The notes beneath the pieces were generated by a model. It was not told the origin of the DNA. It did no database searches and saw nothing but the letters and a program-made list of their open reading frames with translations. 41,460 nt of DNA from a virus (lineage: Duplodnaviria; Heunggongvirae; Uroviricota; Caudoviricetes): IMG/VR virus record IMGVR_UViG_2579778753_000003, one strand, 5' to 3'. The translations under genes were made by a program, and so were the position numbers. This document shows positions 10,222 to 41,460 of the stretch, piece after piece. How positions within the stretch are numbered: the stretch's first letter is position 1; the number at the start of each line of letters is the position of its first letter.

Positions 10222-10260
10222 ACTTCCCCCTGTGTTACTTGTAAATTAAAGGGTAAAACA

Positions 10261-10758: not shown

Positions 10759-10777
10759 CCTATTTCATCCATAAAAA

Positions 10778-10800: not shown

Positions 10801-10819
10801 CATTAGAGGTCAACGTAGC

Positions 10820-10855: not shown

Positions 10856-10955
10856 ATCAACCCCCTCATAGAAATCATAACCACGTTTTGTGGTTTTTGT
10901 GACGTATAAACTACATCAAAGGCAAGCCACGGTCAAATATATAGGCATGCTTACC

Positions 10956-14817: not shown

Positions 14818-14971
14818 TGCTCCCCCTGAGTAATTACAGGAAGATTACCCGCGCGCGAAACCGTTCTCCTTAACCCCCTGTTCTGGCCGTTTTCTTACAA
14901 CAAAAGCCCTTTGTATCAGCCTGTTACGCTTTGCCATCATGACTGAAGAACCAGTCAGAGGGGCAAAAACT

Positions 14972-25331: not shown

Positions 25332-25333
25332 CG

Positions 25334-25867
25334 ATGATGCACTTAAAAAACATTACTGCTGGCAACCCTAAAACAAAAGAGCAATACCAGCTAACGAAAC
25401 AATTTAACATCAAATGGCTTTATTCAGAGAATGGAAAAAACTGGTATGAGGAACAAAAGAATTTCCAGCCAGACACTTTGAAAATGGTCTATGACCATAA
25501 CGGCGTTATTATTTGTATTGAAAAGGATGTTTCAGCAATTAATCCGGAAGGCGCAAGCGTCGTTGAATTACCTGATATTACAGCAAATCGCCGTGCTGAC
25601 ATTTCGGGTAAATGGATGTTCAAAGATGGCGTAGTGGTAAAGCGAACTTATACCGAGGAAGAGCAGAGGCAGCAGGCGGAAAATGAAAAGCAAAGCCTGC
25701 TACAGCTCGTTAGGGATAAAACCCAGCTATGGGACTCACAGCTACGGCTGGGCATCATTTCCGACGAGAATAAACAAAAATTAACCGAGTGGATGCTCTA
25801 TGCGCAGAAAGTCGAATCTACAGACACCTCCAGCCTGCCAGTAACATTTCCCGAACAACCTGAATGA
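25334..25867 (+). CDS. G: Tail fibre assembly protein (gpG-like), partner of cassette 1
   Basis: 177 aa immediately after the tail fibre gene. Confidence 0.85.
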   Translation: MMHLKNITAGNPKTKEQYQLTKQFNIKWLYSENGKNWYEEQKNFQPDTLKMVYDHNGVIICIEKDVSAINPEGASVVELPDITANRRADISGKWMFKDGVVVKRTYTEEEQRQQAENEKQSLLQLVRDKTQLWDSQLRLGIISDENKQKLTEWMLYAQKVESTDTSSLPVTFPEQPE

Positions 25868-25895
25868 GACAAGGCCCGATAGCGGGCCTTAATTT

Positions 25896-26423
25896 TTATT
25901 CAGGCTTTTGTGGCCATTCAGGATTTGCCGTATCCACACGGCTGACCAGAACACTGTAGCGTTCCCATGCTTCCAGTCGTGTGCGTTCCTCGTCTGTTGC
26001 CATATTCAGCCTGACAGCGCGTTCCAGCGGCTGGATGACTGATTCAGCTTCGGAAAGCAATGCGGCCTTTTGTGATTCGGCTTGTTGTTGCTGTTCGTCT
26101 GCCGTATAAATCCGTTTAACTACAGCTCCATCCTTAAACATCCACTTTCCTGAATCATCAGCGCGGCGGTTGGCTGTAATATCTGGAACCTCAACGACGC
26201 TAAAACCTTCAGGGTTAAGCGTGGAGGCATCTTTAGTGATGGCGACAATAATATTATTTGCATCGTAAACAATCTTTATTGTGTCTGGCTGAAAGTTTTT
26301 CACTTCCTCATACCAGTTTTTTCCGTCCTCAGAGTAAAGCCAGATAACTCCGTGTTTCTTTGTTAACTCATACTGTTCCAGTGTTTTAGCGTTACCCGCT
26401 TTTATGTTCTTTAAGTGCATCAT
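25896..26423 (-). CDS. Alternative tail fibre assembly protein, partner of cassette 2
   Basis: 175 aa, about 50% identical to the gpG-like protein (MMHLKNI.AGN.KT.EQY.LTK...), inverted orientation. Confidence 0.8.
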
Positions 26424-26424
26424 A

Positions 26425-27449
26425 TTAAACGCTCGCTACATTATACCAGGTGCCATTTATATACTTTTGAACGGGTCTGTAATAAACGCCCGCTATATTA
26501 TCGGCAGAGTTGGACCCTGTATCCTGAACATTAATACCAGACAATACATGACCTGACGGGCACTGGAAATTCCATGTTTGCCAGTTGTTCACTCTATAAT
26601 ATTGCTGTGAACCAAGTCGAACATCTTTCACATATCTGGAATCAAAATTGCCATAGTTGCCGGGAATAACTTGCGCACCGCAAAGCCAGTTTCCGTTATT
26701 ATCCATGTACGCCTGACCATCGGTGCCATTGGCTGTCCTTGAATTATTAATCATGTAGATGCCAAATTGCTTATTTCCCAGACCGCCAATCATAAATTTG
26801 CGGTCGGCATGGTCCTGACGGAGCAAAGCCTGAGCACCATCAGTGGATACCGCATTACGTCCCATAATAACGTTCTGGTCACGCATATGAATCCACATGC
26901 CTGTACTGCTGTTAATTAAAAAACGGTTTGCAAATATATCTCCTGTAACATCCAGACCATGCCCCATAGTTATGCGACCAGTTCTGAGATTAAGCGTAAA
27001 GGGGCGTAGTGGCCCTATATCGCCATTTTCCCCCTCATTTTCTCGGGTAGGGATGATATGAAGACATTCTTCAGAACGGCGAAAAATAGCACCAAAAGAT
27101 GAATTAAATATCCTCAGTGCATTGACTGTCGATATTTTTACTTCACTGCTGAAAAGGGCTTTAACAAGAACAGACAAAGCATCCCATTTAAGATTCATCA
27201 GGTCTTTTGTTGTGGTGCTTTGTTTGCTTCTCCATTTGAAATATTCATTGCCGTTGTCGCCTGTTTCAAACCACATGTATGAATCAGTATCGCTGTCGGC
27301 ATCATTTTTAAAACCAATCTTTGCCCAGTCAGTATTCCGAATCCAGGCAAGGATTGAGTCGTTTTCAAAAGTAAGCCCACCGGACAAGATATCGCCTGTC
27401 TTTTGGACGGCGTTACCAGCCTTGTTTACCGTTTCCTGTAAACCGAGGT
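26425..27449 (-). CDS. Alternative tail fibre C-terminal cassette 2 (promoterless in this orientation)
   Basis: Frame is open from the centre through ...[30 protein letters not shown]...; no ATG start; would fuse to the constant tail-fibre N-terminus after inversion. Confidence 0.7.
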
Positions 27450-27450
27450 A

Positions 27451-28475
27451 ACCTCGGTTTACAGGAAACGGTAAACAAGGCTGGTAACGCCGTCCAAAAG
27501 ACAGGCGATATCTTGTCCGGTGGGCTTACTTTTGAAAACGACTCAATCCTTGCCTGGATTCGGAATACTGACTGGGCAAAGATTGGTTTTAAAAATGATG
27601 CCGACAGCGATACTGATTCATACATGTGGTTTGAAACAGGCGACAACGGCAATGAATATTTCAAATGGAGAAGCAAACAAAGCACCACAACAAAAGACCT
27701 GATGAATCTTAAATGGGATGCTTTGTCTGTTCTTGTTAAAGCCCTTTTCAGCAGTGAAGTAAAAATATCGACAGTCAATGCACTGAGGATATTTAATTCA
27801 TCTTTTGGTGCTATTTTTCGCCGTTCTGAAGAATGTCTTCATATCATCCCTACCCGAGAAAATGAGGGGGAAAATGGCGATATAGGGCCACTACGCCCCT
27901 TTACGCTTAATCTCAGAACTGGTCGCATAACTATGGGGCATGGTCTGGATGTTACAGGAGATATATTTGCAAACCGTTTTTTAATTAACAGCAGTACAGG
28001 CATGTGGATTCATATGCGTGACCAGAACGTTATTATGGGACGTAATGCGGTATCCACTGATGGTGCTCAGGCTTTGCTCCGTCAGGACCATGCCGACCGC
28101 AAATTTATGATTGGCGGTCTGGGAAATAAGCAATTTGGCATCTACATGATTAATAATTCAAGGACAGCCAATGGCACCGATGGTCAGGCGTACATGGATA
28201 ATAACGGAAACTGGCTTTGCGGTGCGCAAGTTATTCCCGGCAACTATGGCAATTTTGATTCCAGATATGTGAAAGATGTTCGACTTGGTTCACAGCAATA
28301 TTATAGAGTGAACAACTGGCAAACATGGAATTTCCAGTGCCCGTCAGGTCATGTATTGTCTGGTATTAATGTTCAGGATACAGGGTCCAACTCTGCCGAT
28401 AATATAGCGGGCGTTTATTACAGACCCGTTCAAAAGTATATAAATGGCACCTGGTATAATGTAGCGAGCGTTTAA
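27451..28475 (+). CDS. Duplicate (mirror) copy of cassette 2
   Basis: Identical translation to 26425-27387 on the opposite strand. Confidence 0.65.
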
Positions 28476-28476
28476 T

Positions 28477-29004
28477 ATGATGCACTTAAAGAACATAAAA
28501 GCGGGTAACGCTAAAACACTGGAACAGTATGAGTTAACAAAGAAACACGGAGTTATCTGGCTTTACTCTGAGGACGGAAAAAACTGGTATGAGGAAGTGA
28601 AAAACTTTCAGCCAGACACAATAAAGATTGTTTACGATGCAAATAATATTATTGTCGCCATCACTAAAGATGCCTCCACGCTTAACCCTGAAGGTTTTAG
28701 CGTCGTTGAGGTTCCAGATATTACAGCCAACCGCCGCGCTGATGATTCAGGAAAGTGGATGTTTAAGGATGGAGCTGTAGTTAAACGGATTTATACGGCA
28801 GACGAACAGCAACAACAAGCCGAATCACAAAAGGCCGCATTGCTTTCCGAAGCTGAATCAGTCATCCAGCCGCTGGAACGCGCTGTCAGGCTGAATATGG
28901 CAACAGACGAGGAACGCACACGACTGGAAGCATGGGAACGCTACAGTGTTCTGGTCAGCCGTGTGGATACGGCAAATCCTGAATGGCCACAAAAGCCTGA
29001 ATAA
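28477..29004 (+). CDS. Duplicate (mirror) copy of the alternative tail fibre assembly gene
   Basis: Identical translation to 25896-26423 on the opposite strand. Confidence 0.7.
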
Positions 29005-29032
29005 AAATTAAGGCCCGCTATCGGGCCTTGTC

Positions 29033-29566
29033 TCATTCAGGTTGTTCGGGAAATGTTACTGGCAGGCTGGAGGTGTCTGTAGATTCGACTTTCTGCGCAT
29101 AGAGCATCCACTCGGTTAATTTTTGTTTATTCTCGTCGGAAATGATGCCCAGCCGTAGCTGTGAGTCCCATAGCTGGGTTTTATCCCTAACGAGCTGTAG
29201 CAGGCTTTGCTTTTCATTTTCCGCCTGCTGCCTCTGCTCTTCCTCGGTATAAGTTCGCTTTACCACTACGCCATCTTTGAACATCCATTTACCCGAAATG
29301 TCAGCACGGCGATTTGCTGTAATATCAGGTAATTCAACGACGCTTGCGCCTTCCGGATTAATTGCTGAAACATCCTTTTCAATACAAATAATAACGCCGT
29401 TATGGTCATAGACCATTTTCAAAGTGTCTGGCTGGAAATTCTTTTGTTCCTCATACCAGTTTTTTCCATTCTCTGAATAAAGCCATTTGATGTTAAATTG
29501 TTTCGTTAGCTGGTATTGCTCTTTTGTTTTAGGGTTGCCAGCAGTAATGTTTTTTAAGTGCATCAT
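29033..29566 (-). CDS. Duplicate (mirror) copy of the gpG-like tail fibre assembly gene
   Basis: Identical translation to 25334-25867 on the opposite strand. Confidence 0.7.
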   Translation of the reverse strand: MMHLKNITAGNPKTKEQYQLTKQFNIKWLYSENGKNWYEEQKNFQPDTLKMVYDHNGVIICIEKDVSAINPEGASVVELPDITANRRADISGKWMFKDGVVVKRTYTEEEQRQQAENEKQSLLQLVRDKTQLWDSQLRLGIISDENKQKLTEWMLYAQKVESTDTSSLPVTFPEQPE

Positions 29567-29568
29567 CG

Positions 29569-30508
29569 TTAAATACTCCCCGCGTTATACCACGTCCCAT
29601 TAATGCAATACTGAATTGGCCTTGCCTGAGTTGTATCAATTAATTCATCACGGTTTCCGTTAACTGAACCCGTAACGACATAACCTGACCTGTCAGACCA
29701 GCCGGGACCATTCCATGTCTGAACAGATGACAGACCGCCAAGGCGAATACCTGTAATAAACCTTGAGTTACATTCTGCCTGCGTGTATGCACCAACATCT
29801 CCCGCAGAGGGTTTGCGGGTCGTGGTGTAAAACTCTGACCAGTCAGCCTCAAATCCATAACCATCACGCGCTGAACGATAAAAAATACCGCCGTTCCTGT
29901 AATTCACGCGGAACTGTACAGCAGGGCAGCTCCCCGTATTCATATTGAAGTGGAGGATTAATGTCGATGCGCCACCAATGTTTGCGTTATAGACCCCGCT
30001 ATTCCAGTTCCAGCCAACAGCTTTATCATTTCCGACAGTGCTTCCTGTTTGCCCTAAAGCAAATGCAGGTTGTTGATTTTTCGTGTTGTAGTCTCGTCGC
30101 CAGCCAGGAGCGTAAGCATCACCATGATTAATATAAGTGAATTGAGCGTTAGTAATTCCGCCACCGCTGGACGTGCTCGGCGTGGTAACGCGTATGGTCA
30201 TTGCGCCGCGAGTGCCAATAACTTCCACCACAGCACCTGCAAGACAAATATTTCCGCAACCTGTATCTGTAATGACCTTATTATTTGCATAAGCCCATGA
30301 GCCTTTGCACATCCAGTAAGGATGGTTAAATGCTCCCTGACTCTCCAGCCACGAAATAAATTGCGCGGTTGTCCAGACCTGACTATCGCCACCAATATCC
30401 AGCCATGCGCTATATGCGCGGCAGGCCCCAATATTTTTGGTGAAGGTATCTTTTCCCGGAATATCTGCGCCGTTCTGGTTTTTCTGTAATGCGCCAGAAG
30501 CCTGATTT
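29569..30508 (-). CDS. Duplicate (mirror) copy of cassette 1 (promoterless)
   Basis: Translation identical to the tail-fibre C-terminus; frame is open up to the gixR-like site. Confidence 0.65.
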
Positions 30509-30513
30509 ACCGT

Positions 30514-30539
30514 TTCCTGTAAACCGAGGTTTTAGATAA
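30514..30539. other. Invertase crossover site gixR-like
   Basis: ttcctgtaaacc-ga-ggttttagataa; mirror of the left site with two outer-arm mismatches; 37 bp upstream of the invertase gene. Confidence 0.7.
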
Positions 30540-30575
30540 TGGCCGTTTCCGGCCTGCATGGCATGATTTGCGCTT

Positions 30576-31181
30576 TTGGACGGGAGATTCAGCGTGCTGA
30601 TTGGCTATGTAAGGGTATCAACAAATGACCAGAATACAGACCTGCAACGAAACGCTCTTGTTTGTGCAGGATGTGAACAAATATTTGAAGATAAATTAAG
30701 CGGGACAAAGACAGACCGACCGGGATTAAAACGCGCTTTAAAGCGCCTTCAAAAAGGTGACACGCTGGTTGTCTGGAAACTGGATCGCCTCGGGCGAAGC
30801 ATGAAACATCTGATTTCTCTCGTCGGGGAACTACGGGAGCGAGGAATTAATTTTCGCAGTCTGACCGACAGCATAGATACATCTTCTCCAATGGGGCGTT
30901 TTTTCTTCCACGTGATGGGTGCCCTGGCTGAAATGGAACGTGAATTAATTGTTGAACGTACACTGGCCGGACTGGCGGCAGCACGCGCACGGGGGCGCAC
31001 AGGCGGACGTCGACCGAAGCTGACAAAAGAACAGCATGAGCAAATAGCAAGGCTGATCAAAAACGGGCACGACAGAAAACAACTGGCAATAATTTACGGC
31101 ATTGGTATATCGACGATTTATCGTTACCACCCCGCAGGAGAATCAATCGGAACAATAGAGAAGAGTCAGGAAACAAAATAA
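30576..31181 (+). CDS. Serine DNA invertase (Gin/Cin/Pin/Hin family)
   Basis: LIGYVRVSTNDQNTDLQRNAL...DTLVVWKLDRLGRSMKHLI... with a C-terminal helix-turn-helix (GISTIYRY); an alternative GTG start at 30594 gives the canonical N-terminus. Confidence 0.9.
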   Translation: MDGRFSVLIGYVRVSTNDQNTDLQRNALVCAGCEQIFEDKLSGTKTDRPGLKRALKRLQKGDTLVVWKLDRLGRSMKHLISLVGELRERGINFRSLTDSIDTSSPMGRFFFHVMGALAEMERELIVERTLAGLAAARARGRTGGRRPKLTKEQHEQIARLIKNGHDRKQLAIIYGIGISTIYRYHPAGESIGTIEKSQETK

Positions 31182-31212
31182 CCGCTAATCTGACCATTAG
31201 CGGTTTTTGTGT
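31182..31212. terminator. Bidirectional intrinsic terminator
   Basis: ccgctaat-ctgacc-attagcgg (8-bp stem) followed by TTTTTGT on the plus strand and a U-rich run on the minus strand; lies between the convergent invertase and gpU-like genes. Confidence 0.6.
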
Positions 31213-31216
31213 TAAA

Positions 31217-31711
31217 TCAGAACAGCCCTTTAACTGAACTGGCCGCGCTGTTAAGAGATGATGTCACCTTATCTTTGAAGCCGGACAGCATATCGCTGAA
31301 TGATGAGGATTGCAGGCGCTCCCGCAAATCCTCATCACAGCGTTCAAGGGTCAGTGAAAATTCTATCTTTTTCGCCTTACCGTAGCGATCAAACTCGGAA
31401 CGGGTCGTATTCGTTTCAGTCAGCACATACATGCCGTAAATCTGCCCGACACCATCAATCAGAGGCCAGGGGCGTCCTGTATATGCCTGCGTGGTCAGCA
31501 ACGAAAGCGACACTTCGCCACCTGTAATTTCAGGATAAAGCACGCCGGAAAGCACAATGCGATCATCACCTGCACCTATATACTGCCAGCTTGCTGAACG
31601 GTTAACGCGTTCATTTTTCACATGCCGCCAGCTTTTGTTTTGCTGTAACTGCTGATGCGGCAGTGTGCGCAGCTCAAAAACAAACATGCCGTAGATCATC
31701 ATCATGACCAT
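31217..31711 (-). CDS. U: Tail protein (P2 gpU-like)
   Basis: N-terminus MVMMMIYGMFVFELRTLPHQQ resembles recalled gpU (MMMVLGLFVFMLQTVPYQE). Confidence 0.8.
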   Translation of the reverse strand: MVMMMIYGMFVFELRTLPHQQLQQNKSWRHVKNERVNRSASWQYIGAGDDRIVLSGVLYPEITGGEVSLSLLTTQAYTGRPWPLIDGVGQIYGMYVLTETNTTRSEFDRYGKAKKIEFSLTLERCDEDLRERLQSSSFSDMLSGFKDKVTSSLNSAASSVKGLF

Positions 31712-31717
31712 GACTCC

Positions 31718-34534
31718 TCAATCTTTATCGTAAAAACTGCCACGTCCGGCACGGGCGCGCCGTTCCATCTCTGCCCTGACCATTTCACCGACCAGTTTCG
31801 CCAGTTCGCGGGGATTCTGCGTAACAACGTTATGCAGATGAACATGAATTTCACCGCCAAATCTGGAGACAGCAGGCTCCCGGTTACGGGAAGCTGCAGG
31901 AACTGATGCCACTGGCGATCGTATGGCCTCCGCCACCGGGCGGGAGCTGGCCGCAACAACAGGGACCAGCGCCGGAGGCAGCGGAGCCGGGACTACGGGT
32001 GTGATATTAATTGCGGGGGCAGGCTTACTGACCTGCGCAATCTTCCGCTCCTGCCACTCCCCACGAACAGCAAGTGCGCGGGGCAGGTTCTTAAAGACAA
32101 TATCGCCAGGGCCAATGCGTTTTTTCGTCTCATCAACCAGCTTACCTGTGTTATCAGCAATTTTGCTGAGTCTGCGTAGCGTCCCGGTATTGCTGTCTGT
32201 GAGCGGTTTGTTGTCTTTGGGTTTATCACCTCCGGTGCCATTGCCATTTTCCACAGGCTTCGGCGGATTGATTTTCGCAAGGTCCCCCTGAAGCAAGGCA
32301 ACCTTGTCCTGAAGAATGGCCGCACGCTGTGCGTCTTCGATTTTCTTGCGCGCCTTTTCCGCTTCATCCGGAAGGACGCCAAGTTTTTCAAGTATCCACG
32401 CCAGCGTATCCAGTAGCATTTTTGCAGGTGTCAGAACAAGCTGTAACGCACCGCCAAGAACGTTACCGAATATCTCGCCAGCACTGGTACATTTATCCAG
32501 CGTTTCCTTGCTGGACTCCATCGGTGACAGCAGCGATTTAAACCAGTTAAACACCTGGCTGATCCCGCTTCCGATTGCGTCAAAAACAGGACCAAACCGT
32601 TCAAAGGTTTCGCGCAACGGGGTCAGCCTTTCCATAATCCCGCTGAACACCCCGGCAAAAAATGCCCTGATGGGATCCCAGTATTTCCAGATAAGAACGG
32701 CAGCTCCGGCAAGCGCAGCCACGATAAGACCAACCGGACTGATCAGCGCCCCGATAGCGCCTCCCAGTAAAGAAACGGAACCCGTCACCATTCCCCATAG
32801 TGCTGGCAGGACCCTGACAGCATTCATTGATCCGGTCAGGAGAGAAAAACCGAGACGTAACGTAGCCAGCTTCCCGTGAAGCACCCCAATAACCAGAGAC
32901 AACGAACCAACCGTTGCTGTTGTCGCCAGCAGTGCACCTCCCGCTATCAGTAACTGGCGCGTCAGTGCCGGATGGGCCTGCGCCAGTGCCGTCACTTTTG
33001 AGACCACCCGCGTGAGCCACTGCGTGACAGAACGCAGCGGACCGTCAATCAGATCTGCAATGCGGATTCGCAACCCTTCCCATGCACTGCCGAGTGATTT
33101 CAGATCGCCGTCAAGGTTGTTGGCCATAACCTTTGCTGTGCGTTCAGCCTCACCGCGCGCGCCTTCAAGTTCTTTTCTCAGTTTGGGTAAGGAACCGTCA
33201 CCCGCTGCATCAACGAGCGCCATAAACGATGTGAAAGCCTCTTCTCCGGCAATGTCCTTAAAGAACGATACCCGGTCAACTTCCCCGTATTTGCGGGTGG
33301 CTTTATAAAGGTCGGCCAGCACATCCTCCATCGGGCGCATTTTGCCCCCGGCATCCGAGACGGACACGCCCAGCTCTTTCAGAGCTTCTGCCGCCGCCTT
33401 TGGCGGTGATGCCAGACGAGCCAGGCTGGCACGCATTGCCGTCCCGGCATCACTCCCTCTGATGCCCATATTCGCCAGCACGCCAGCCATCGCTGCGGCC
33501 TGCTCCAGCGATATTCCCAGCTTACCCGCCACCGGACCTGCATATTTCATGGTTTCGCCCAGTGCGCGAAGGTCAGTGTTGGTACGGGTAAACGCTGCGG
33601 TGAGTGTGTCACCGACCCGGTCCATCTGGTCAGCAGAAAGGCCGAACTGCGTCAGGATATTTGAGCCAATATCTGCCGTCTCGCCGAGATCCATACCGCC
33701 AGCCGTTGCCATGCTCAGCACGCCGGGAAGCGCAGCCTGAATGGCCTGCGGAGTGAAGCCAGCCATTGCAAGAAATGCCTGTCCACTGGCGGCATCGCCT
33801 GCGGTGAACTGCGTTTCAGAGCCAAGTTTTAACGCCTGCTCACGCAGCGCCTTAAACTGCGGGCTGTTCTGGTCGATTCGCGTCAGTGCCTGAACGCGGG
33901 ACATCTCTTTGCCGAACCCGATCGCAGGCTGCAAAAAACGCCCGGCAGCATAGCCGCCCGCCGCTGCCGCACCAATTGCCAGCGCACCACCTGTTTTCAG
34001 TTTTCCCGCTGTTTCCTGCGCGCGCGAATACCGCTCACGCGCCCGCGTTACACGCGCAAGCGCCTGCCGTTCGCGTTCAAGCTGGTTGTTGTACTGTTCG
34101 GTGCGTCTGATGGCCTGCTGGATGGTGTTATCGCTGCCTGTCAGGGAAATGCCGTGGCGTTTCAGCTCTCCGCCAAGCTCCCGCATTTTCTGAATTTCCC
34201 GTGTGCGCGATTCATTCAGGCGTTCAAGCCGGGTGCTTAACTGCTGCATCAGCTTTTGTTGTTTTTCGCTGAGCACTGTACCCGTGCGTTGTAACTGATT
34301 AAGGGCGTTAAGCTGGCGTCGTGCTTTCACGATGCCAGCATCCGCTTTACTGACAGCGTCACGGGCGCGCTCAAATGAACGCGCCTGACGCTCGAGATTT
34401 TTGATCGCCCCCTGCGTTCGCTGGATGGAGTCACCAAACTGCCCCATCAGGCGGCGGGCGTTTTCGGCAGGCCGGGTCAGCCTGTCAACGGCGCTGAAAG
34501 CGACCCGGATATCAAGAGTCTTCATTATCTGCAT
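31718..34534 (-). CDS. T: Tail tape measure protein (P2 gpT-like)
   Basis: 938 aa, coiled-coil N-terminal half and glycine/alanine-rich hydrophobic middle, upstream of the gpU-like gene. Confidence 0.85.
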   Translation of the reverse strand: MQIMKTLDIRVAFSAVDRLTRPAENARRLMGQFGDSIQRTQGAIKNLERQARSFERARDAVSKADAGIVKARRQLNALNQLQRTGTVLSEKQQKLMQQLSTRLERLNESRTREIQKMRELGGELKRHGISLTGSDNTIQQAIRRTEQYNNQLERERQALARVTRARERYSRAQETAGKLKTGGALAIGAAAAGGYAAGRFLQPAIGFGKEMSRVQALTRIDQNSPQFKALREQALKLGSETQFTAGDAASGQAFLAMAGFTPQAIQAALPGVLSMATAGGMDLGETADIGSNILTQFGLSADQMDRVGDTLTAAFTRTNTDLRALGETMKYAGPVAGKLGISLEQAAAMAGVLANMGIRGSDAGTAMRASLARLASPPKAAAEALKELGVSVSDAGGKMRPMEDVLADLYKATRKYGEVDRVSFFKDIAGEEAFTSFMALVDAAGDGSLPKLRKELEGARGEAERTAKVMANNLDGDLKSLGSAWEGLRIRIADLIDGPLRSVTQWLTRVVSKVTALAQAHPALTRQLLIAGGALLATTATVGSLSLVIGVLHGKLATLRLGFSLLTGSMNAVRVLPALWGMVTGSVSLLGGAIGALISPVGLIVAALAGAAVLIWKYWDPIRAFFAGVFSGIMERLTPLRETFERFGPVFDAIGSGISQVFNWFKSLLSPMESSKETLDKCTSAGEIFGNVLGGALQLVLTPAKMLLDTLAWILEKLGVLPDEAEKARKKIEDAQRAAILQDKVALLQGDLAKINPPKPVENGNGTGGDKPKDNKPLTDSNTGTLRRLSKIADNTGKLVDETKKRIGPGDIVFKNLPRALAVRGEWQERKIAQVSKPAPAINITPVVPAPLPPALVPVVAASSRPVAEAIRSPVASVPAASRNREPAVSRFGGEIHVHLHNVVTQNPRELAKLVGEMVRAEMERRARAGRGSFYDKD

Positions 34535-34778
34535 TCCCGCTGCGAAGTGCCGCCCGCTCGCGCCAGCTAACCACTTCGCCGGGCGTCATCATGAAGATTT
34601 CGGCGGGCGACCAGTTAAAAATGGCGGCAATATCCGCCACCAGATCTTCGATGTGCTCAAAGCACACCAGGGTGATTACGCTGCCGTCTCCTGCACGCTC
34701 TTCGCGCCAGAGTCTGGCTCGCTCATAAAATTTACAGCCACAGCGCACAACTGAATAAAATCGCGTGACGACATTTTT
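34512..34778 (-). other. E' frameshift extension (programmed -1 shift from the gpE frame)
   Basis: The -1 frame is open from the A7 slippery run (mRNA AUUAAAAAAAUG, plus-strand T7 at 34774-34780) to 34512, overlapping the 3' end of the gpE-like gene and the tape-measure start. Confidence 0.5.
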
Positions 34779-35050
34779 TTAATCATCACTTCATCCAGTC
34801 GTGGCGAGGTCACGCGAGGCAACAGCGTAAACATGGTATCCGCTTTCAGATTCAGCACATCAGACAGCGACAGACCACGCAGGGATCCAGCCTGCTCAAT
34901 AGCCCCGGTGATCTCCACATACGTGATTTTTTCGCCACCACGCTCAATTGGTCGGGTCAGTTTTACGCCACGTTCGACAGCCATATCCTCACCTGCCGTC
35001 ACATCATCCGCCACGGTGTTATTCCGGGTTTCAGTATCGATGTCTTTCAT
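34676..35050 (-). CDS. E: Tail assembly chaperone (P2 gpE-like)
   Basis: 124 aa with AAGGAG Shine-Dalgarno; sits between the tube and tape-measure genes and has a slippery A7 run near its 3' end. Confidence 0.7.
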   Translation of the reverse strand: MKDIDTETRNNTVADDVTAGEDMAVERGVKLTRPIERGGEKITYVEITGAIEQAGSLRGLSLSDVLNLKADTMFTLLPRVTSPRLDEVMIKKMSSRDFIQLCAVAVNFMSEPDSGAKSVQETAA

Positions 35051-35105
35051 CAGTTGTCTCCTTTTCAGTCAGAGGCGACGCACTGCGCCGCCTGCATATT
35101 ACTTA

Positions 35106-35618
35106 TCAGCCAAGCCCAAGCGCGGAACGGATACGGTCAGGCACAATGTCCTTGCCGTCCTTCCGGTAGATGTGGTTCAACAGGTCGATTTCCCACAGCG
35201 GGCGATCGTTAACGCTCAGCTTGTAGTAGGTGTTTTTGACAGCGTAAGTGTGTGATGTGGCTTCGCCCTGTTTGGCTTCCCCCATATCAATTTCCGTCAC
35301 ACGCCCGCGCATCTCGATTTCATACAGATCGCTTTCTGCATCGGTGTAGTATTCACCCGCAAAACGCAGCAGCGTGCCGTCAATCGTGCCGCCATATTTA
35401 AGGAACAGCGCACGAACAGCTCCCCCCATGACAAAACTCGCATCAAGCGCGGAGTCGTCCAGACCGAGATCAATACTTACCGCCCCCATCATGCCACCAC
35501 CACGATAGCTGTCGGTTTTGCGCGTCAGTTTGGGCGGCGTGACGGATGTCACTTTACCCACTTCGTTTTCACCATCCACAAACAACGTAAAAAAGCGAAG
35601 ATGTTTTGGTACAGCCAT
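35106..35618 (-). CDS. FII: Tail tube protein (P2 gpFII-like)
   Basis: 170 aa directly after the sheath gene. Confidence 0.85.
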   Translation of the reverse strand: MAVPKHLRFFTLFVDGENEVGKVTSVTPPKLTRKTDSYRGGGMMGAVSIDLGLDDSALDASFVMGGAVRALFLKYGGTIDGTLLRFAGEYYTDAESDLYEIEMRGRVTEIDMGEAKQGEATSHTYAVKNTYYKLSVNDRPLWEIDLLNHIYRKDGKDIVPDRIRSALGLG

Positions 35619-36802
35619 CAGGCACCTCCCAGCACCGCAAATGCGGGACCAAAGAATTCATCAGTAAACGTCTGGTAAAGCTCCATGTCTTCCAGCGGGG
35701 GAACAGGCGTATATTTGTAGCGAATACGCACACGTCCCTGACGTAAATTCGTGGTGCCGTTATCCACCACGTCATACCAGCACTCCGCACCAATCAGTTT
35801 CCCGGCAGTAACCAGCGAATCCAGTTTTGCCCTGATGGCGCTGATAACATCCTTCACGTTCGCAGGTGTCAGTGGACTGTCGATGGTTTCAAACTGCGCT
35901 TCCGCAATTGAATCAGCCAGCACCTGTGCGGTTCGGGTATACACCTCAAAGATGTAGGCGTTCGTTTCCGGTGTGCGGTTGCCCCAGAAGCGGAACCCGT
36001 TGCGACGAATAATGGTCGTGATTTCTTTGTTGTTGAGGCTGTTGGCATCGCTGTCTTCGGCCTGCAACGACCAGAACACATGCCTGGACATTCCCAGCAC
36101 ATTTTTAACCGGAACGTTGGACAGCGATTTGTGCCAGCCCTGCTCATGGTCAATGTACGCACGAAGGCCGCACGCATAAGCAGGCGCGGGGAACGTTTCG
36201 TTTTTGCCACTTTTCGGGTTGTAGGCGATGAAGTCCGGCCATAAGAGCATCACCTCACGTTCGTTGAATTTCTGGCGGTAGGTAATCGCCTCAGCCATCG
36301 TGTTACAGCCGTGACATGAGGCATACACAAACGCGCGCAGTTTACCTGCAATCACGCACAGGGATTTTGTTACAGCCTCCGTGTCCAGCTCCGGCGCGGC
36401 CAGAATACGCGGACGGTATCCGATGCTTTCATCCTGCTCTGCAACAAGCAGCGCATACATCCCCGTATAGCTGCCGTCATCCTCAGAACCACCGATAACC
36501 AGTTGATCCTGCGTCTTTCCGTCTTCTTCTTTGTGTTCAGCCACGCGAACGACGATCACCTTTGTGCTCACCTGGTCTGCGATGGCCTTAAGCGCACGAT
36601 AAAGCGTCCCCGTTGTCCCGCATTTTCCCAGCACGTCATTGACGCGGGTCAGCAGTGTGGGCTTATTCAGCGGGAACAGCTTCGCGTCCGCATCATCCGC
36701 CGTTGCCACGATACCGATAACGCTGGAATCAACATCGTTAATCGCTGTTACCAGGTCGGTATTTTCCGTAACACGGGCACCATGAAAACGAGTTTCACTC
36801 AT
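35618..36802 (-). CDS. FI: Tail sheath protein (P2 gpFI-like)
   Basis: 394 aa; first gene of the sheath-tube-chaperone-tape measure-gpU block. Confidence 0.9.
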   Translation of the reverse strand: MSETRFHGARVTENTDLVTAINDVDSSVIGIVATADDADAKLFPLNKPTLLTRVNDVLGKCGTTGTLYRALKAIADQVSTKVIVVRVAEHKEEDGKTQDQLVIGGSEDDGSYTGMYALLVAEQDESIGYRPRILAAPELDTEAVTKSLCVIAGKLRAFVYASCHGCNTMAEAITYRQKFNEREVMLLWPDFIAYNPKSGKNETFPAPAYACGLRAYIDHEQGWHKSLSNVPVKNVLGMSRHVFWSLQAEDSDANSLNNKEITTIIRRNGFRFWGNRTPETNAYIFEVYTRTAQVLADSIAEAQFETIDSPLTPANVKDVISAIRAKLDSLVTAGKLIGAECWYDVVDNGTTNLRQGRVRIRYKYTPVPPLEDMELYQTFTDEFFGPAFAVLGGA

Positions 36803-36959
36803 AGCTTCAGCCCCTTGTATCCGTTAAATGATTCGGCAACAATCATCACCCACCACGCGCGTAATCTCACCCCTGCGCCGTTCTCCCGACCCGGCGACAA
36901 CAAAAAGCAGTACCCCCCTCCGCACGCACATGCGACCATGCCGCACAGGGAGGGAACAG

Positions 36960-38069
36960 ATGACCGACACCACCATGCAATTGCTCAGTCAGGGCACGGC
37001 CCCCGTGAAAATGCCGGATTTTGATATTCTCTCGGAGGGTAAAACGCTGTCAGGCGTGGCGGAGCGCCTGATGAGCCTGTCACTGACCGACAACCGGGGA
37101 TTTGAGGCGGACCAGCTCACCATCACGCTGGATGATGCGGATGGTCAGTTGCAGCTACCGCCACGGGGCGCGCGCCTGACGGTTCTCATTGGCTGGAAAG
37201 GAGAACCGCTGACAGAAAAAGGCACTTACATTGTTGATGAAGTCGCTCACGAAGGACCGCCGGACAGGCTGACTGTTTCAGCCAGAAGCGCAGATTTTCG
37301 GGATGAATTTAACGTTAAACGTGAGGTGTCCTGGCATGATGTGACCGTTGAGCGTGTGGTATCCGCCATCGCTCATCGGTATGGTCTGAAACCACAAATC
37401 AGCGAAATGCTGATGGATATCGAAATCGACCACGCCGACCAGACCGAAGAAAGCGACATGTCCTTCCTTACGCGCATGGCGGAAATGCTGGGCGCAATCA
37501 CCACGGTAAAAAGCGGCAATCTGTTATTCATCATGCCAGGTGGTGGCGTGAACGCACAGGGCCAGCCGTTGCCCTCGTTCGCCATTACACGCAGCAGCGG
37601 CGATCGCCATCAGTTCCGTATTGCTGACCGCGAGGCGTATACGGGGGTACGCGCCTACTGGCTTGATCTTAATTACGGGAAAAAGAAAAAAGTCAGCGTG
37701 AAACGCCGCAAACCACCAAAACCCCAAAAGGAGAAAAGCAGCAGCCGTGAAGGTGATTATATGGAAGGCGCGGAAGGCAATGTGTTTGTGTTACGCAAGA
37801 CCTATCAGAACGAACAGGCAGCAAGACGCGCAGCGGCGGCAAAGTGGCAGCAACTACAACGCGGAGCCGCATCATTCTCCATCACGCTGGCGCGTGGACG
37901 TGCAGAACTCTACCCCGAAATGCATGGTACGGTAACAGGATTTAAAAGCGAGATTGATAATCAGGACTGGATCATTGCAAAAGCCGAGCACACTATTGAT
38001 AACAGCGGCTTTACCACGCAGCTTGAGCTTGAGGCAAAAATCCCGGAATGGATAGCGGAAACAGAGTGA
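36960..38069 (+). CDS. D: Tail protein / late control protein D (P2 gpD-like)
   Basis: ATG at 36960 with AGGGAGGG upstream (the track ORF from 36828 has no Shine-Dalgarno); about 369 aa. Confidence 0.8.
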   Translation: MTDTTMQLLSQGTAPVKMPDFDILSEGKTLSGVAERLMSLSLTDNRGFEADQLTITLDDADGQLQLPPRGARLTVLIGWKGEPLTEKGTYIVDEVAHEGPPDRLTVSARSADFRDEFNVKREVSWHDVTVERVVSAIAHRYGLKPQISEMLMDIEIDHADQTEESDMSFLTRMAEMLGAITTVKSGNLLFIMPGGGVNAQGQPLPSFAITRSSGDRHQFRIADREAYTGVRAYWLDLNYGKKKKVSVKRRKPPKPQKEKSSSREGDYMEGAEGNVFVLRKTYQNEQAARRAAAAKWQQLQRGAASFSITLARGRAELYPEMHGTVTGFKSEIDNQDWIIAKAEHTIDNSGFTTQLELEAKIPEWIAETE

Positions 38070-38111
38070 GCAACTTAGAATAGCGGCAGCACCACGTTAA
38101 GGGAGGTCGCT

Positions 38112-38372
38112 ATGTTCCGTTGTCCGCTTTGTGGCGCATCTGCCCGTATCCGCACCAGTCGTCCGGAAAATGATTCAAACACCGTGCGGCAAAAGTATTA
38201 CCAGTGTAACAATCTGGAATGCGGCGTATGCTTCTCAACACTGGAAGCCTTCCATAAATTCACATCAAAACACGCCTCCGGCGTTCACTCTTCAGAAGGT
38301 ATCCCGTGGCATGAGCTGCCAGCTTCACACAGGGGAAACAATCAGATGAGTTTGCCTTTACCTCAGAATTAA
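38112..38372 (+). CDS. ogr: Late-gene transcription activator, Ogr/Delta zinc-finger family
   Basis: MFRCPLCGASARIRTSR...KYYQCNNLECGVCFST: a C4 zinc finger as in recalled P2 Ogr (MFHCPLC...YHQCQNVNCSATF). Confidence 0.85.
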   Translation: MFRCPLCGASARIRTSRPENDSNTVRQKYYQCNNLECGVCFSTLEAFHKFTSKHASGVHSSEGIPWHELPASHRGNNQMSLPLPQN

Positions 38373-38562
38373 CAGGCAGAATTGCCGGAGTAACAAAAAA
38401 GCGATAGATTACGCGCGGGTGCCTTTCGGCTGATGGTCGGAGGGAATACCCGATGGCCGGATGTGGAAAGGCCCCGGAAAACACTTTTGTTTAACCGAGG
38501 CCCTAACCGTCTACCCTAAGCAAGTGATAGGTTAGCGCCTCCCCGAAAAAGGAGCAAGCGCT

Positions 38563-38703
38563 ATGTCGCAAAAATCGCTTACGGCCATCACGTTCTGCGT
38601 GACGGTAATCCTCATCATCTGGATGCTGCACGGTTCGCTGTGTGAAATACGGATGAGCTTCTGGGGAGCGGAGTTTGCGGCGTTCTTACAGTGTAAGCAG
38701 TAA
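38563..38703 (+). CDS. Hok/Gef-family type I toxin (putative)
   Basis: 46 aa: MSQKSLTAITFCVTVILIIWMLHGSLCEIRMSFWGAEFAAFLQCKQ; membrane helix plus SLCEIR and E.AAF as in Hok (SLCEIR...EVAAFMAYE); AGGAG Shine-Dalgarno; GC-rich hairpin at 38712-38733 downstream. Confidence 0.65.
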   Translation: MSQKSLTAITFCVTVILIIWMLHGSLCEIRMSFWGAEFAAFLQCKQ

Positions 38704-38965
38704 GGAAACCGCGACGGGGGAGTAATCCCCCGTCAATCGGTTGCTAGGGTAAGGTCGATAAGGCACCCTATCTCACAGCTCTAAATGCAAAAATTCCATG
38801 AAACTGTGGGATTTTTGCATCACATACTGATACAGACCAGCCCTTCTATATGCCTCACTCTATACCAGCTAATCAATTGACACTTATCAATAAAAATAAA
38901 TCTGATAAAATCAAAATGTTTTGTAACAAATATCAACTCGTATTAATCCAAAGGAGGCGGATTAC

Positions 38966-39298
38966 ATGGCATTAATCAAATGTCCTGAATGCCAGAAAGA
39001 GGTGAGCGATTCAGCATTGTATTGCCCTGCTTGTGGTAAACAACTGCAAAAACTTAAGCGTTCATTTTTTGGACGGATCATTAAGTGGGTTTTTATATTA
39101 TTTAATATTTTTATGATCTATACGCTTTTAGTTGGACTAGGAGGCACTAGTGAAATAATAAATAATGCCACATCCGATGCCGAAAAAGCCGGTGCAGTTA
39201 TTGGTACAGGCTTAGGTTTAATTACCATTGGAAGCTTATGGGTTATTGGCGATATCATTATCGGAATTTTAGTATTTCTTACTAAACCAAAGGGATAA
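38966..39298 (+). CDS. Zinc-ribbon membrane protein, unknown function
   Basis: 110 aa; CPEC...CPAC zinc ribbon followed by two hydrophobic helices; AGGAGG Shine-Dalgarno; AT-rich. Confidence 0.6.
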   Translation: MALIKCPECQKEVSDSALYCPACGKQLQKLKRSFFGRIIKWVFILFNIFMIYTLLVGLGGTSEIINNATSDAEKAGAVIGTGLGLITIGSLWVIGDIIIGILVFLTKPKG

Positions 39299-39302
39299 TA
39301 AA

Positions 39303-40196
39303 ATGAAAAATATAATTTTTTCTATAGGTGCATCATTTATATCAATTAGTGTACTGCCTGTTCACGCAGCAACTGAACATAAGAACTTCAATGCAGTACT
39401 CCAGTGCCGAGCAATAGAAAATAATAAAGACAGACTTTCTTGTTACGATAAGTCAATACAACCGACTCGAACGAAAGTTGCTGAAAAATTCGAAAGCAGA
39501 GATCAATGCCCTGATGAGAAAGATGATGATAGACGTTTATCTTGTTATGATCGTTTCTTTTCTCCAACATTTACTCCATCTGTAAACTCAAAATCTAAAA
39601 CGGAAAAGCCAGTAACAACAGAGGCTCAGCAACCAAATCTTTCTGAGATATCTAAATGTCGTGCAGAAAATGATAAAGAAGCCAGACTAAACTGCTACGA
39701 TAAACTATTCCCACAGGATAAAATCGTTCAAGCTGAATCAAAATTAGAGAAAGCCACAGATGTAGGAAAATGGCACACATCCATTACTACATCGCCAATT
39801 GATGATTCGAAAAATGTAATTTTATCGTTAGAAAGTGATGATTATATCAGAACTCCATTTGGAGAAGCGGTTACTCCTACTCTTTTTATAGCTTGCCGAG
39901 AAAAGAAAACCGAAGTATTTCTTAGTTGGGATGTATATTTAGGCCTTGAACAAACCAGCATGCTTTATCGCCTTGATAAACAGAAAGCAGTTGAGCGAAA
40001 CTGGCTAGTATCTACAGATACAAAGGCTGTTTTTTATAAAGGTAATGACATTGATTTCATCCGAAAACTAGCCAACTCAAGCAAAATGTATACAAAAATA
40101 ACGCCTTATAATGAGAGCCCCGTAAGTGCAACTTTCAATTTAAACGGCCTGTCAAACGCGCTAAAACCGCTTCAAGCTGCTTGTAACTGGAAATAG
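39303..40196 (+). CDS. Secreted protein with three cysteine-pair repeats, unknown function
   Basis: 297 aa; signal peptide (cleavage after VHA), three copies of a C-x8/9-RL-x-CYD-K/R motif, then a roughly 150-aa C-terminal domain; AT-rich. Confidence 0.65.
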   Translation: MKNIIFSIGASFISISVLPVHAATEHKNFNAVLQCRAIENNKDRLSCYDKSIQPTRTKVAEKFESRDQCPDEKDDDRRLSCYDRFFSPTFTPSVNSKSKTEKPVTTEAQQPNLSEISKCRAENDKEARLNCYDKLFPQDKIVQAESKLEKATDVGKWHTSITTSPIDDSKNVILSLESDDYIRTPFGEAVTPTLFIACREKKTEVFLSWDVYLGLEQTSMLYRLDKQKAVERNWLVSTDTKAVFYKGNDIDFIRKLANSSKMYTKITPYNESPVSATFNLNGLSNALKPLQAACNWK

Positions 40197-40279
40197 TATT
40201 AAATCATGTGGCTTAGCCACAATCACAGATAACACAAAGCCCGTGAAAACGGGCTTTGTGTTATCTGTAACTCGAAAAT

Positions 40280-40298
40280 GTGGTCACTGCGTGGACAC
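40280..40298. repeat. Candidate attR core (right copy of 19-bp direct repeat)
   Basis: gtggtcactgcgtggacac versus 11-29 (18/19 identical); sits at the transition from AT-rich cargo to the host flk region. Confidence 0.4.
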
Positions 40299-40464
40299 GC
40301 GCTGACATAAATCCTTTTACATCAATAAATTAAGTCATCATTTTTTTCATCAACAAGGATTTTCACGTTTGTGTTACCTGTATGAGACGAGAGTTAACCG
40401 GACAAGTGTGCCATAATCTCGCGGCCAGGCATACTTGCGAAGATTTCAGGTATAAGGATACGTA

Positions 40465-41460
40465 ATGATACAACCTATTTCCGGCCCTCCTCCTGGGCAA
40501 CCACCAGGTCAGGGAGATAACCTGCCGTCTGGAGCGGGCAATCAGCCTTTATCCAGTCAGCAACGTACTTCGCTGGAAAGCTTAATGACGAAAGTGACCT
40601 CACTGACGCAACAACAAAGAGCAGAACTGTGGGCGGGTATCAGGCACGATATTGGTCTGTCGGGAGATTCACCGCTGCTTTCGCGTCACTTCCCTGCCGC
40701 TGAGCATAATCTGGCGCAACGTCTGCTGGCCGCGCAAAAAAGCCATTCTGCCCGCCAGCTTTTAGCGCAATTAGGGGAGTATTTACGTCTGGGGAATAAT
40801 CGTCAGGCGGTCACGGATTATATCCGTCATAACTTTGGTCAGACGCCGCTGAATCAGCTCTCACCGGAGCAATTAAAAACCATTCTCACCCTGTTGCAGG
40901 AAGGGAAGATGGTTATTCCGCAACCACAGCAGCGCGAGGCGACCGACCGTCCTTTATTACCGGCGGAGCACAATGCGCTAAAACAGCTGGTGACCAAACT
41001 TGCGGCGGCAACGGGGGAACCCAGCAAACAGATCTGGCAATCGATGCTGGAACTTTCCGGGGTGAAAGATGGCGAGTTAATTCCAGCGAAACTGTTTAAC
41101 CATCTGGTGACCTGGTTGCAGGCGCGCCAGACGTTAAGCCAGCAAAATACGCCGACGCTGGAATCACTACAGATGGCGCTAAAACAACCTTTAGATGCCA
41201 GTGAACTGGCGGCGTTATCGGCATATATCCAGCAAAAATATGGCCTTTCTGCGCAATCATCGCTTTCTTCTGCCCAGGCCGAGGATATTCTTAATCAGCT
41301 TTATCAACGGCGGGTTAAAGGGATTGATCCGCGTGATATGCAACCGCTGCTTAATCCTTTTCCACCGATGATGGACACGTTGCAAAATATGGCAACGCGT
41401 CCCGCGCTGTGGATACTGTTAGTCGCGATTATCCTGATGCTGGTCTGGCTGGTTCGTTAG
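40465..41460 (+). CDS. flk: Host gene: flagellar regulator Flk-like, C-tail-anchored membrane protein
   Basis: 331 aa; N-terminus MIQPISGPPPGQPPGQGDNLPSG and a single C-terminal helix (ALWILLVAIILMLVWLV) match recalled enterobacterial Flk. Confidence 0.6.
   Translation: MIQPISGPPPGQPPGQGDNLPSGAGNQPLSSQQRTSLESLMTKVTSLTQQQRAELWAGIRHDIGLSGDSPLLSRHFPAAEHNLAQRLLAAQKSHSARQLLAQLGEYLRLGNNRQAVTDYIRHNFGQTPLNQLSPEQLKTILTLLQEGKMVIPQPQQREATDRPLLPAEHNALKQLVTKLAAATGEPSKQIWQSMLELSGVKDGELIPAKLFNHLVTWLQARQTLSQQNTPTLESLQMALKQPLDASELAALSAYIQQKYGLSAQSSLSSAQAEDILNQLYQRRVKGIDPRDMQPLLNPFPPMMDTLQNMATRPALWILLVAIILMLVWLVR

What the first reader, a model, noticed from the sequence alone, without database searches (positions are those of the whole stretch)
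31213..36959. Tail block (sheath to gpU) inverted relative to gpD and Ogr compared with canonical P2 order
In P2 the sheath, tube, chaperone, tape-measure, gpU and gpD genes form one co-directional late operon. Here the first five are on the minus strand while gpD and ogr are on the plus strand, so the sheath gene and gpD diverge from a shared 157-bp region and gpD would need its own promoter. A single inversion of about 31213-36810 restores P2 order with the invertase in the Z/fun slot. I found no convincing inverted repeats or gix-like sites at the breakpoints, and no canonical TGT-N12-ACA late-promoter dyad in 36803-36959. Occurring next to the palindrome, this may be one complex rearrangement, a lineage-specific organisation, or a misassembly.
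Basis: partly seen in the sequence, partly recalled or inferred. Interest (0 to 1): 0.55.

Follow-up and report, generated by a model that had tools for sequence, protein, structure and literature searches.

The report
Clade-wide inverted tail operon in P2-like prophage
The flipped tail-gene block is real. It is an old, fixed trait of a whole branch of P2-like phages, seen in about a quarter of complete E. coli genomes, and not a recent rearrangement or assembly error; gene D is probably switched on from the same activator site as the sheath gene.

Summary
U, T, E/E', FII and FI lie on the minus strand (31217-36802). D (36960-38069) and ogr (38112-38372) lie on the plus strand, and FI and D diverge from a 157-bp gap.

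The interpretation as a rearrangement or misassembly is refuted.
- The window is a Xuanwuvirus (phage P88-like) prophage.
- The sheath/D junction is intact in 1,363 of 5,426 complete E. coli genomes. A synthetic "canonical" U-to-D junction occurs in none.
- The viable phages P88, phiSM and SEN5 share the layout.
- All 34 scored loci with this orientation form one clade in both the gpD and the sheath trees. They cover four Peduoviridae genera and about 15 enterobacterial genera. All 50 other relatives keep P2 order.
- Most inverted genomes have no invertase, and no gix sites or inverted repeats flank the block.

The gap is not promoter-less. It holds a single P2-type activator dyad (TCT-N12-ACA, 36882-36899), identical in its 14 specified bases to the site between the terminase and scaffold genes. 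Sister genera have a canonical TGT-N12-ACA at the same place. -10-like hexamers sit 44-49 nt from the dyad centre on both sides. This is the geometry of P2's shared pP/pO site, so D probably has a divergent Ogr-dependent promoter (inferred, not shown).

Interest is low.

The parts
30514..30539 (+). Right gix site of the Gin-type invertible tail-fibre segment. Context only; it is not a breakpoint of the tail-block inversion.
   Evidence: TTCCTGTAAACCGAGGTTTTAGATAA. The only other match in the window is at 24361.
30576..31181 (+). Gin-like serine DNA invertase. RefSeq relatives start it at 30594.
   Evidence: Resolvase 1.5e-50, HTH_7; window 29000-30950 is 97% identical to the phage D108/Mu G-region and gin.
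31180..31205 (.). Bidirectional intrinsic terminator between the convergent invertase and gpU genes. This is the left junction of the inverted block.
   Evidence: a 10-bp stem followed by a T-run on both strands. repeat I23.
31217..31711 (-). gpU tail protein
   Evidence: Phage_P2_GpU, 5.5e-39; 46% identity to P2 U.
31718..34534 (-). gpT tape measure protein
   Evidence: PhageMin_Tail, 3.6e-58. annotation.
34512..34667 (-). E' frame (GpE family), the frameshift extension of the tail chaperone
   Evidence: RefSeq 'GpE family phage tail protein' at the equivalent position. ORF 34512-34748.
34676..35050 (-). gpE tail assembly chaperone
   Evidence: Phage_TAC_7, weak; E = 4.7e-4, below the curated cut-off..
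35106..35618 (-). gpFII tail tube
   Evidence: Phage_tube, 2.1e-45.
35618..36802 (-). gpFI tail sheath
   Evidence: three sheath domains.
36803..36959 (.). 157-bp divergent control region between FI and D
36842..36847 (-). Predicted -10 element of the sheath promoter (GATGAT on the minus strand), 44-49 nt from the dyad centre
   Evidence: Positions 2, 5 and 6 are conserved in 16 of 17 non-redundant lineages.
36882..36899 (.). Single P2-type activator dyad TCT-N12-ACA (centre 36890.5), predicted to be a shared Ogr site
   Evidence: GTTCT-N12-ACAACAAAA occurs only here and at 14880-14905; 35 of 37 inverted loci have one such dyad, 75.5-88.5 nt from the FI ATG.
36934..36939 (+). Predicted -10 element of the gpD promoter (GACCAT), 44-49 nt from the dyad centre
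   Evidence: A2, A5 and T6 are conserved in 17 of 17 lineages.
36960..38069 (+). gpD baseplate hub ('late control D')
   Evidence: Phage_GPD; 49% identity to P2 D. The start matches P88, with the Shine-Dalgarno sequence GGGAGGG upstream.
38112..38372 (+). Ogr/Delta zinc-finger late activator
   Evidence: Ogr_Delta, 5.1e-14.
14880..14905 (.). Matching activator site between the terminase (P) and scaffold (O) genes. Used as the internal reference for the late-promoter motif.

Best explanation
The window carries a P88-like (Xuanwuvirus) P2-family prophage. In the common ancestor of one enterobacterial branch of Peduoviridae, the segment holding the late promoter PF and the genes FI-FII-E/E'-T-U was inverted once. 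That state is now fixed (shown). The tail operon is therefore read leftward from the FI-D gap and ends at a bidirectional terminator, which here is shared with the convergent invertase gene. gpD was cut off from its old operon. It is most likely transcribed rightward from a second, divergent Ogr-dependent promoter that uses the same dyad-symmetric activator site as the sheath promoter. In this reading the site sits about 55 nt upstream of both start points, as P2 does at its divergent pP/pO pair (inferred from sequence geometry and conservation; not shown experimentally). The Gin-type invertase next to the block is a separate, later, Mu-like acquisition. It flips the tail-fibre segment and played no part in this inversion.
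For: Fixed and common. The real FI/D junction is intact in 1,363 of 5,426 complete E. coli genomes. The whole 10-kb region is contiguous in 609. A synthetic canonical U-to-D junction occurs in 0 of the 1,414 genomes that hold either half. Viability. The isolated phages P88, Citrobacter phiSM and Salmonella SEN5 have the same layout. Single origin. All 31 species-level loci with gpD at least 62% identical are inverted, and all with 53% or less are canonical. In NJ trees of both D and FI the 34 inverted loci are monophyletic against 50 canonical loci. Distant Peduoviridae are canonical. Not invertase-driven. Only 4 of 31 inverted loci have an invertase. The Reginaelenavirus, Reipivirus and Senquatrovirus representatives (one genome each) have none. 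No gix sites or inverted repeats lie at the breakpoints. Promoter. There is one T[G/C]T-N12-ACA dyad in 35 of 37 inverted loci, 75.5-88.5 nt from the FI ATG. This matches the 76.5-87.5 nt seen upstream of FI in 30 of 46 canonical relatives. The N12 spacer varies while the half-sites are kept. (G/A)AnnAT hexamers lie at 44-49 nt on both sides, with A2, A5 and T6 kept in 16-17 of 17 non-redundant lineages, and the D ATG follows at 68-80 nt. The window's site shares 14 of 14 specified bases with its own P/O site and occurs nowhere else in the window. In the P2 record a single activator site (centre 3072) lies midway between the pP and pO start points (3016 and 3127). No sigma-70 consensus promoter is found in the gap.
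Against: No transcript or binding data exist for this lineage, so the shared use of the dyad is an inference. The window's left half-site is TCT rather than TGT. P2's own sites are also degenerate. In SEN5 the P/O dyad lies only 55.5 nt from the annotated terminase ATG, so the 55-nt rule, or the annotated start codons, does not fit everywhere. Two loci (L022 and L023) lack an exact dyad and have only CCT-N12-ACA. The predicted D leader is short, about 13-15 nt.
Confidence: 0.8

Rival explanations
1. The orientation is a misassembly, or a recent rearrangement in this genome that arose together with the adjacent 6.2-kb palindrome.
For: A near-perfect palindrome (24361-27449 / 27451-30539, 2 mismatches) lies about 700 bp to the left, and its centre junction is unique to this sequence.
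Against: The same orientation and junctions occur in hundreds to more than a thousand independent complete genomes, and in isolated phages that lack the palindrome. The alternative junction is never seen.
Confidence: 0.01
2. The tail block is a programmed invertible segment that the neighbouring Gin-like invertase flips on and off.
For: An active-looking serine invertase gene abuts the left breakpoint.
Against: No gix-like site lies within 3 mismatches at either breakpoint, and no flanking inverted repeats exist. None of 1,414 genomes has the other orientation. 27 of 31 inverted loci, and the sampled representatives of three genera, lack any invertase. Flipping would also separate FI from its promoter geometry.
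Confidence: 0.01
3. The inversion is ancient, but gpD is not driven by the shared dyad. It would have an independent promoter, either sigma-70 type or with a separate unrecognised activator site, or it would be expressed together with ogr under early or intermediate control.
For: A conserved CGCGCGCG tract and other conserved bases lie on the D side and are not explained by the dyad model. In P2, ogr has its own sigma-70 promoter. The window's left half-site is non-canonical.
Against: There is only one dyad in the gap in 35 of 37 loci. The -10-like hexamers are placed symmetrically, at the same distance on both sides, and are almost invariant at three positions. No sigma-70 consensus is found in the gap. 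In strain 13KWH46 D and ogr are separated by 5 kb of opposite-strand cargo, so D is not tied to ogr.
Confidence: 0.18

Closest known systems
Phage P2 FETUD late operon and its PF promoter
   Same: The gene set is the same (FI, FII, E/E', T, U, D, then ogr), at 33-50% protein identity. The dyad lies about 83 nt upstream of the FI ATG in both.
   Different: FI through U, with PF, are inverted. D is detached and preceded by its own Shine-Dalgarno sequence and a predicted promoter. The operon ends at a terminator that faces the tail-fibre/invertase module.
Phage P2 divergent pP/pO promoters with one shared activator (Ogr) site
   Same: A single dyad lies midway between two divergent late genes. 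Start points, or predicted -10 elements, are symmetric about it (P2: 55.5 nt each way; here: -10 elements at 44-49 nt each way). The window's own P/O site has the same sequence as the FI/D site.
   Different: Here the pair is FI/D rather than P/O, so this lineage would have two such bidirectional late promoters. No experimental mapping exists for it.
Escherichia phage P88 (Xuanwuvirus), Citrobacter phage phiSM, Salmonella phage SEN4/SEN5 (Senquatrovirus)
   Same: The tail-block orientation is identical. P88 is 96% identical over 98% of window 29000-39000. All are inducible, viable phages (PMC5285337, PMC6456863, PMC5261728).
   Different: SEN5 has no invertase and has a canonical TGT-N12-ACA dyad. 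None of these three papers contains the words for inversion, orientation or rearrangement in its text, so none comments on the layout.
Mu/P1/P7 G- or C-segment with Gin/Cin invertase
   Same: The neighbouring module (29000-30950) is 95-98% identical to the D108, Mu and P7 invertible-segment DNA and carries gix sites.
   Different: That system inverts only the 3-kb tail-fibre segment. The 5.6-kb tail block has no gix sites and never varies.

Membership tests
Peduoviridae (P2-like) prophage | P2-type structural gene set: sheath, tube, E chaperone, tape measure, U, D, and baseplate genes V/W/J/I | tested here: met
   Pfam; annotation of near-identical records; tblastn against P2, 33-62% identity.
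Peduoviridae (P2-like) prophage | Ogr/Delta zinc-finger late activator encoded after gpD | tested here: met
   Ogr_Delta, 5.1e-14, at 38112-38372.
Peduoviridae (P2-like) prophage | Co-directional FI-FII-E-T-U-D operon, as in P2 | tested here: not met
   FI through U are on the opposite strand to D. This is the clade-specific variant and does not exclude family membership, because ICTV places P88 and SEN4 in Peduoviridae.
Genus Xuanwuvirus (P88-like) | High nucleotide identity and synteny with phage P88 | tested here: met
   96.1% identity over 98% of window 29000-39000; same gene order and 97-99% protein identity, except E (75%) and H (80%). Whole-genome identity was not computed.
P2-type Ogr-dependent late promoter | Dyad TGT-N12-ACA centred about 55 nt upstream of the start point | tested here: inconclusive
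   The window has TCT-N12-ACA, one mismatch. Sister genera have the exact dyad at the same position. The start point has not been mapped. Consensus as stated in PMC3931495.
P2-type Ogr-dependent late promoter | A -10-like element at the right distance, and no sigma-70 -35 element | tested here: met
   (G/A)AnnAT at 44-49 nt on both sides; no sigma-70 consensus promoter in 36803-36959.
P2-type Ogr-dependent late promoter | Transcription requires Ogr binding to the dyad | not testable with these tools
   Needs reporter, footprint or 5'-end mapping experiments.
Serine-invertase (Gin/Hin) invertible segment | Inverted gix/hix recombination sites at both ends of the segment | tested here: not met
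   gix sites only at 24361 and 30514; no inverted repeats bridging about 31200 and about 36850.
Serine-invertase (Gin/Hin) invertible segment | Both orientations found among closely related genomes | tested here: not met
   the alternative junction is in 0 genomes and the observed junction in 1,363.

The most novel reading that the evidence does not exclude
Because the P2 late-activator site is a dyad that can serve promoters on both sides, the ancestral inversion placed gpD directly next to a ready-made bidirectional activator site. D could then be rescued by evolving only a -10 element and a ribosome-binding site. On this reading the clade has two bidirectional Ogr-dependent promoter pairs (P/O and FI/D). 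D became a separately tunable one-gene late unit, which also opened the D-ogr gap as a cargo slot.
Probability: 0.55. Interest if true: 0.35.

Novelty: already known. Interest (0 to 1): 0.18.

Why it matters
The main value is as a correction. The layout should not be flagged as a rearrangement or assembly error, because it is the normal organisation of a very common group of E. coli and enterobacterial prophages. It also gives a simple synteny marker for that branch of Peduoviridae. The one small new point is the predicted shared sheath/D late promoter. If confirmed, it would be a clear example of how a dyad-symmetric activator site lets an operon survive being split by an inversion. It could be tested directly with the inducible phage P88.

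Tried and rejected
- The exact TGT-N12-ACA search gave 7 hits, all outside late-gene junctions and no more than chance. This showed that the motif's absence from the gap says nothing, because the phage's own P/O region lacks it too.
- The search for inverted repeats and gix sites at the breakpoints found nothing.
- Rfam found no RNA family in 30000-41460.
- In the texts of the P88, phiSM, SEN4/5 and Serratia PP4 papers, and of a 2026 survey of P2-like phages, searches for words such as inversion, inverted or orientation (the term lists differed between papers) returned nothing relevant, so none discusses this inversion. Searches for the primary Ogr-site papers returned nothing readable, so the consensus is cited from PMC3931495 and PMC5694545 and from the P2 GenBank features.
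- I compared the U C-terminus and the D N-terminus with P2 to look for scars of the breakpoint. These ends fail to align in both directions, so the comparison is uninformative.
- Extrapolated D start codons first suggested a variable distance from dyad to D. Choosing starts preceded by a Shine-Dalgarno sequence removed most of that spread.

Full report
**What is in the window**

- A Gin-like serine invertase lies at 30576-31181 on the plus strand.
- gpU (31217-31711), the tape measure (31718-34534), the E chaperone (34676-35050, with its E' frame at 34512-34667), the tube (35106-35618) and the sheath (35618-36802) lie on the minus strand.
- gpD and an Ogr/Delta zinc-finger gene (38112-38372) lie on the plus strand.

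The true D start is 36960, as annotated in phage P88, and it is preceded by GGGAGGG. This leaves a 157-bp divergent gap. In P2 itself all of these genes are co-directional. The observation therefore stands.

**It is a lineage trait, not a rearrangement of this genome**

- Window 29000-39000 spans both junctions. It is contiguous at 95-99.8% identity in 609 complete E. coli genomes.
- It is 96% identical to the isolated phage P88, genus Xuanwuvirus.
- A 600-nt probe across the real sheath/D junction is intact in 1,363 of 5,426 complete E. coli genomes.
- A probe across the invertase/U junction is intact in 621 genomes.
- A synthetic probe for the canonical U-to-D junction is intact in none of the 1,414 genomes that hold either half.
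- P88, Citrobacter phiSM and Salmonella SEN5 are viable, inducible phages with this layout (PMC5285337, PMC6456863, PMC5261728).

Misassembly and a polymorphic switch are thereby excluded.

**Age and distribution**

A tblastn survey was run on phage records and on 80 species-level loci found with a gpD profile.
- Every locus whose gpD is at least 62% identical to the window's is inverted. These 31 loci come from Salmonella, Symbiopectobacterium, Kluyvera, Serratia, Kosakonia, Chania, Klebsiella, Yokenella, Dryocola, Hafnia, Enterobacter, Citrobacter, Xenorhabdus, Pectobacterium and Pantoea.
- The phage genera Xuanwuvirus, Reginaelenavirus, Reipivirus and Senquatrovirus are also inverted.
- Every locus at 53% identity or less has P2 order.
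- More distant Peduoviridae are canonical as well: Mannheimia PHL101, Pseudomonas Sirocco, Stenotrophomonas Smp131 and a Vibrio phage.
- In neighbour-joining trees of both gpD and the sheath, the 34 inverted loci are monophyletic against 50 canonical loci.

The simplest reading is one ancient inversion that became fixed in this branch.

**The invertase is not involved**

- Only 4 of the 31 inverted loci contain an invertase. The SEN5, Kp4871-3 and Kp4848-1 genomes have none.
- Several canonical-order phages carry an invertase in the same slot after the tail-fibre genes.
- The window's invertase module is 95-98% identical to Mu/D108/P7 DNA. It is therefore a recent mosaic acquisition.
- gix sites occur only at the ends of the tail-fibre segment.
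- No inverted repeats bridge the two breakpoints.

**How the split operon is probably expressed**

The exact TGT-N12-ACA motif is absent from the gap. It is also absent from every other late junction in this window, so its absence means nothing.

The gap does hold GTTCT-N12-ACAACAAAA at 36880-36905. The same 14 specified bases occur at 14880-14905, between the terminase and scaffold genes. The motif occurs nowhere else in 41 kb, even with two mismatches allowed. This is the P2 motif with one change, TCT-N12-ACA.

The comparative evidence is as follows.
- Sister genera carry a perfect TGT-N12-ACA at the same position.
- 35 of 37 inverted loci have exactly one such dyad in the gap. Its centre is 75.5-88.5 nt from the sheath ATG.
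- That distance equals the 76.5-87.5 nt found upstream of the sheath gene in 30 of 46 canonical relatives, and the 83 nt in P2. The sheath promoter and its activator site evidently moved with the block.
- Among 17 non-redundant lineages the 12-nt spacer varies freely while the half-sites are kept.
- A (G/A)AnnAT hexamer lies 44-49 nt from the dyad centre on both sides. Positions 2, 5 and 6 are conserved in 16-17 of 17 lineages. The D start codon follows at 68-80 nt, after a Shine-Dalgarno sequence.
- In the window the two hexamers are GATGAT (36842-36847, minus strand) and GACCAT (36934-36939, plus strand).
- No sigma-70 consensus promoter is found in the gap.

The P2 GenBank record annotates one activator site for both pP and pO. 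Its centre (3072) lies midway between the two mapped start points (3016 and 3127), 55.5 nt from each. The Smp131 paper likewise assigns one dyad to both PP' and PO' (PMC3931495).

From this I infer that FI and D form a second divergent, Ogr-dependent pair sharing one site. Predicted start points are near 36835 (minus strand) and 36945 (plus strand). This is an inference from geometry and conservation; nothing here shows transcription or binding.

At the other end of the block, a 10-bp hairpin with T-runs on both strands (31180-31205) can terminate both the invertase and the tail operon.

**Caveats**

- The window's left half-site is non-canonical, although P2's own annotated sites are degenerate too.
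- Two loci have only CCT-N12-ACA.
- In SEN5 the P/O dyad is only 55.5 nt from the annotated terminase ATG. Either that annotation or a strict 55-nt rule fails there.
- An independent D promoter cannot be excluded. I give that rival about 0.18.

**Comparison and novelty**

The element is a member of Peduoviridae and of the P88 group. It differs from P2 in one defining aspect of operon layout. The layout is present in public, ICTV-classified reference genomes and in a quarter of complete E. coli genomes, so it is already known in that sense. Searches of the text of the relevant papers for inversion- and orientation-related words found no comment on it. The shared sheath/D promoter is a modest, testable addition.

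**Verdict**

The finding is real but ordinary. Interest is 0.18.

**Seen in passing**

The neighbouring palindrome is two copies of the invertible tail-fibre segment in opposite orientations. The arms differ at only 2 of 3,089 positions. The centre lies 4 nt beyond the gix core, and the centre junction is absent from all 5,426 complete E. coli genomes. It is most likely an assembly artefact of mixed orientations, and it is unrelated to the tail-block orientation.

Noticed in passing
window 24361-30539 (centre 27450): A 6.2-kb near-perfect palindrome made of two copies of the Gin-invertible tail-fibre segment in opposite orientations. The arms differ at only 2 of 3,089 positions, both in the outer gix half-sites. 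The centre lies 4 nt beyond the gix crossover core, so it is not a normal Gin recombination product. No complete E. coli genome (0 of 5,426) contains the centre junction. It is probably an assembly artefact of mixed orientation states, since from general knowledge long perfect palindromes are unstable in E. coli. Read data are needed to decide.
   Followed up: partly
L093 9565-14714 (E. coli 13KWH46); equivalent to window 38070-38111: In close relatives the short gap between gpD and ogr holds inserted cargo on the opposite strand. In 13KWH46 this is a His-Xaa-Ser HxsABCD system interrupted by an IS3 element. Other relatives list DUF2971 and P-loop NTPase genes within the matched span. The D-ogr gap therefore appears to be a cargo hotspot in this lineage.
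   Followed up: partly
window 29000-30950: The tail-fibre variable segment and the 5' part of the invertase gene are 95-98% identical to phages D108, Mu and P7. Similarity stops inside the invertase gene, which indicates a recent mosaic exchange with Mu/P1-type phages.
   Followed up: partly
L002 27217-28070 (RefSeq NZ_CP132979); equivalent to window 36960-38069: RefSeq annotation of near-identical prophages starts gpD about 103 codons too late (a 266-aa 'VgrG/Pvc8 family' protein) and adds a short antisense pseudogene. Yet tblastn shows an uninterrupted full-length D at 99% identity. This is probably an annotation artefact.
   Followed up: partly
window 8017-9295: ParM-like and partition-protein genes sit after the replication endonuclease gene, as in P88. 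This hints at a plasmid-like maintenance option; P88 is mentioned in a phage-plasmid survey (PMC7969092).
   Followed up: no
window 9300-11000 and 38900-40200: Two low-GC islands (34-38% GC against about 55% for the phage). The first holds a hypothetical gene and a DUF4760 gene. The second holds a zinc-ribbon gene and a 'TagO'-annotated gene between a Hok/Gef toxin gene (about 38563-38703) and the host gene flk. Both are probably cargo or prophage-end islands.
   Followed up: no
window 20878-20890: The baseplate gene V follows gene S with almost no gap, and no dyad is seen there. This phage may therefore lack a separate PV promoter, unlike P2 and SEN5 (SEN5 has a dyad upstream of V at L005 356-373).
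   Followed up: no
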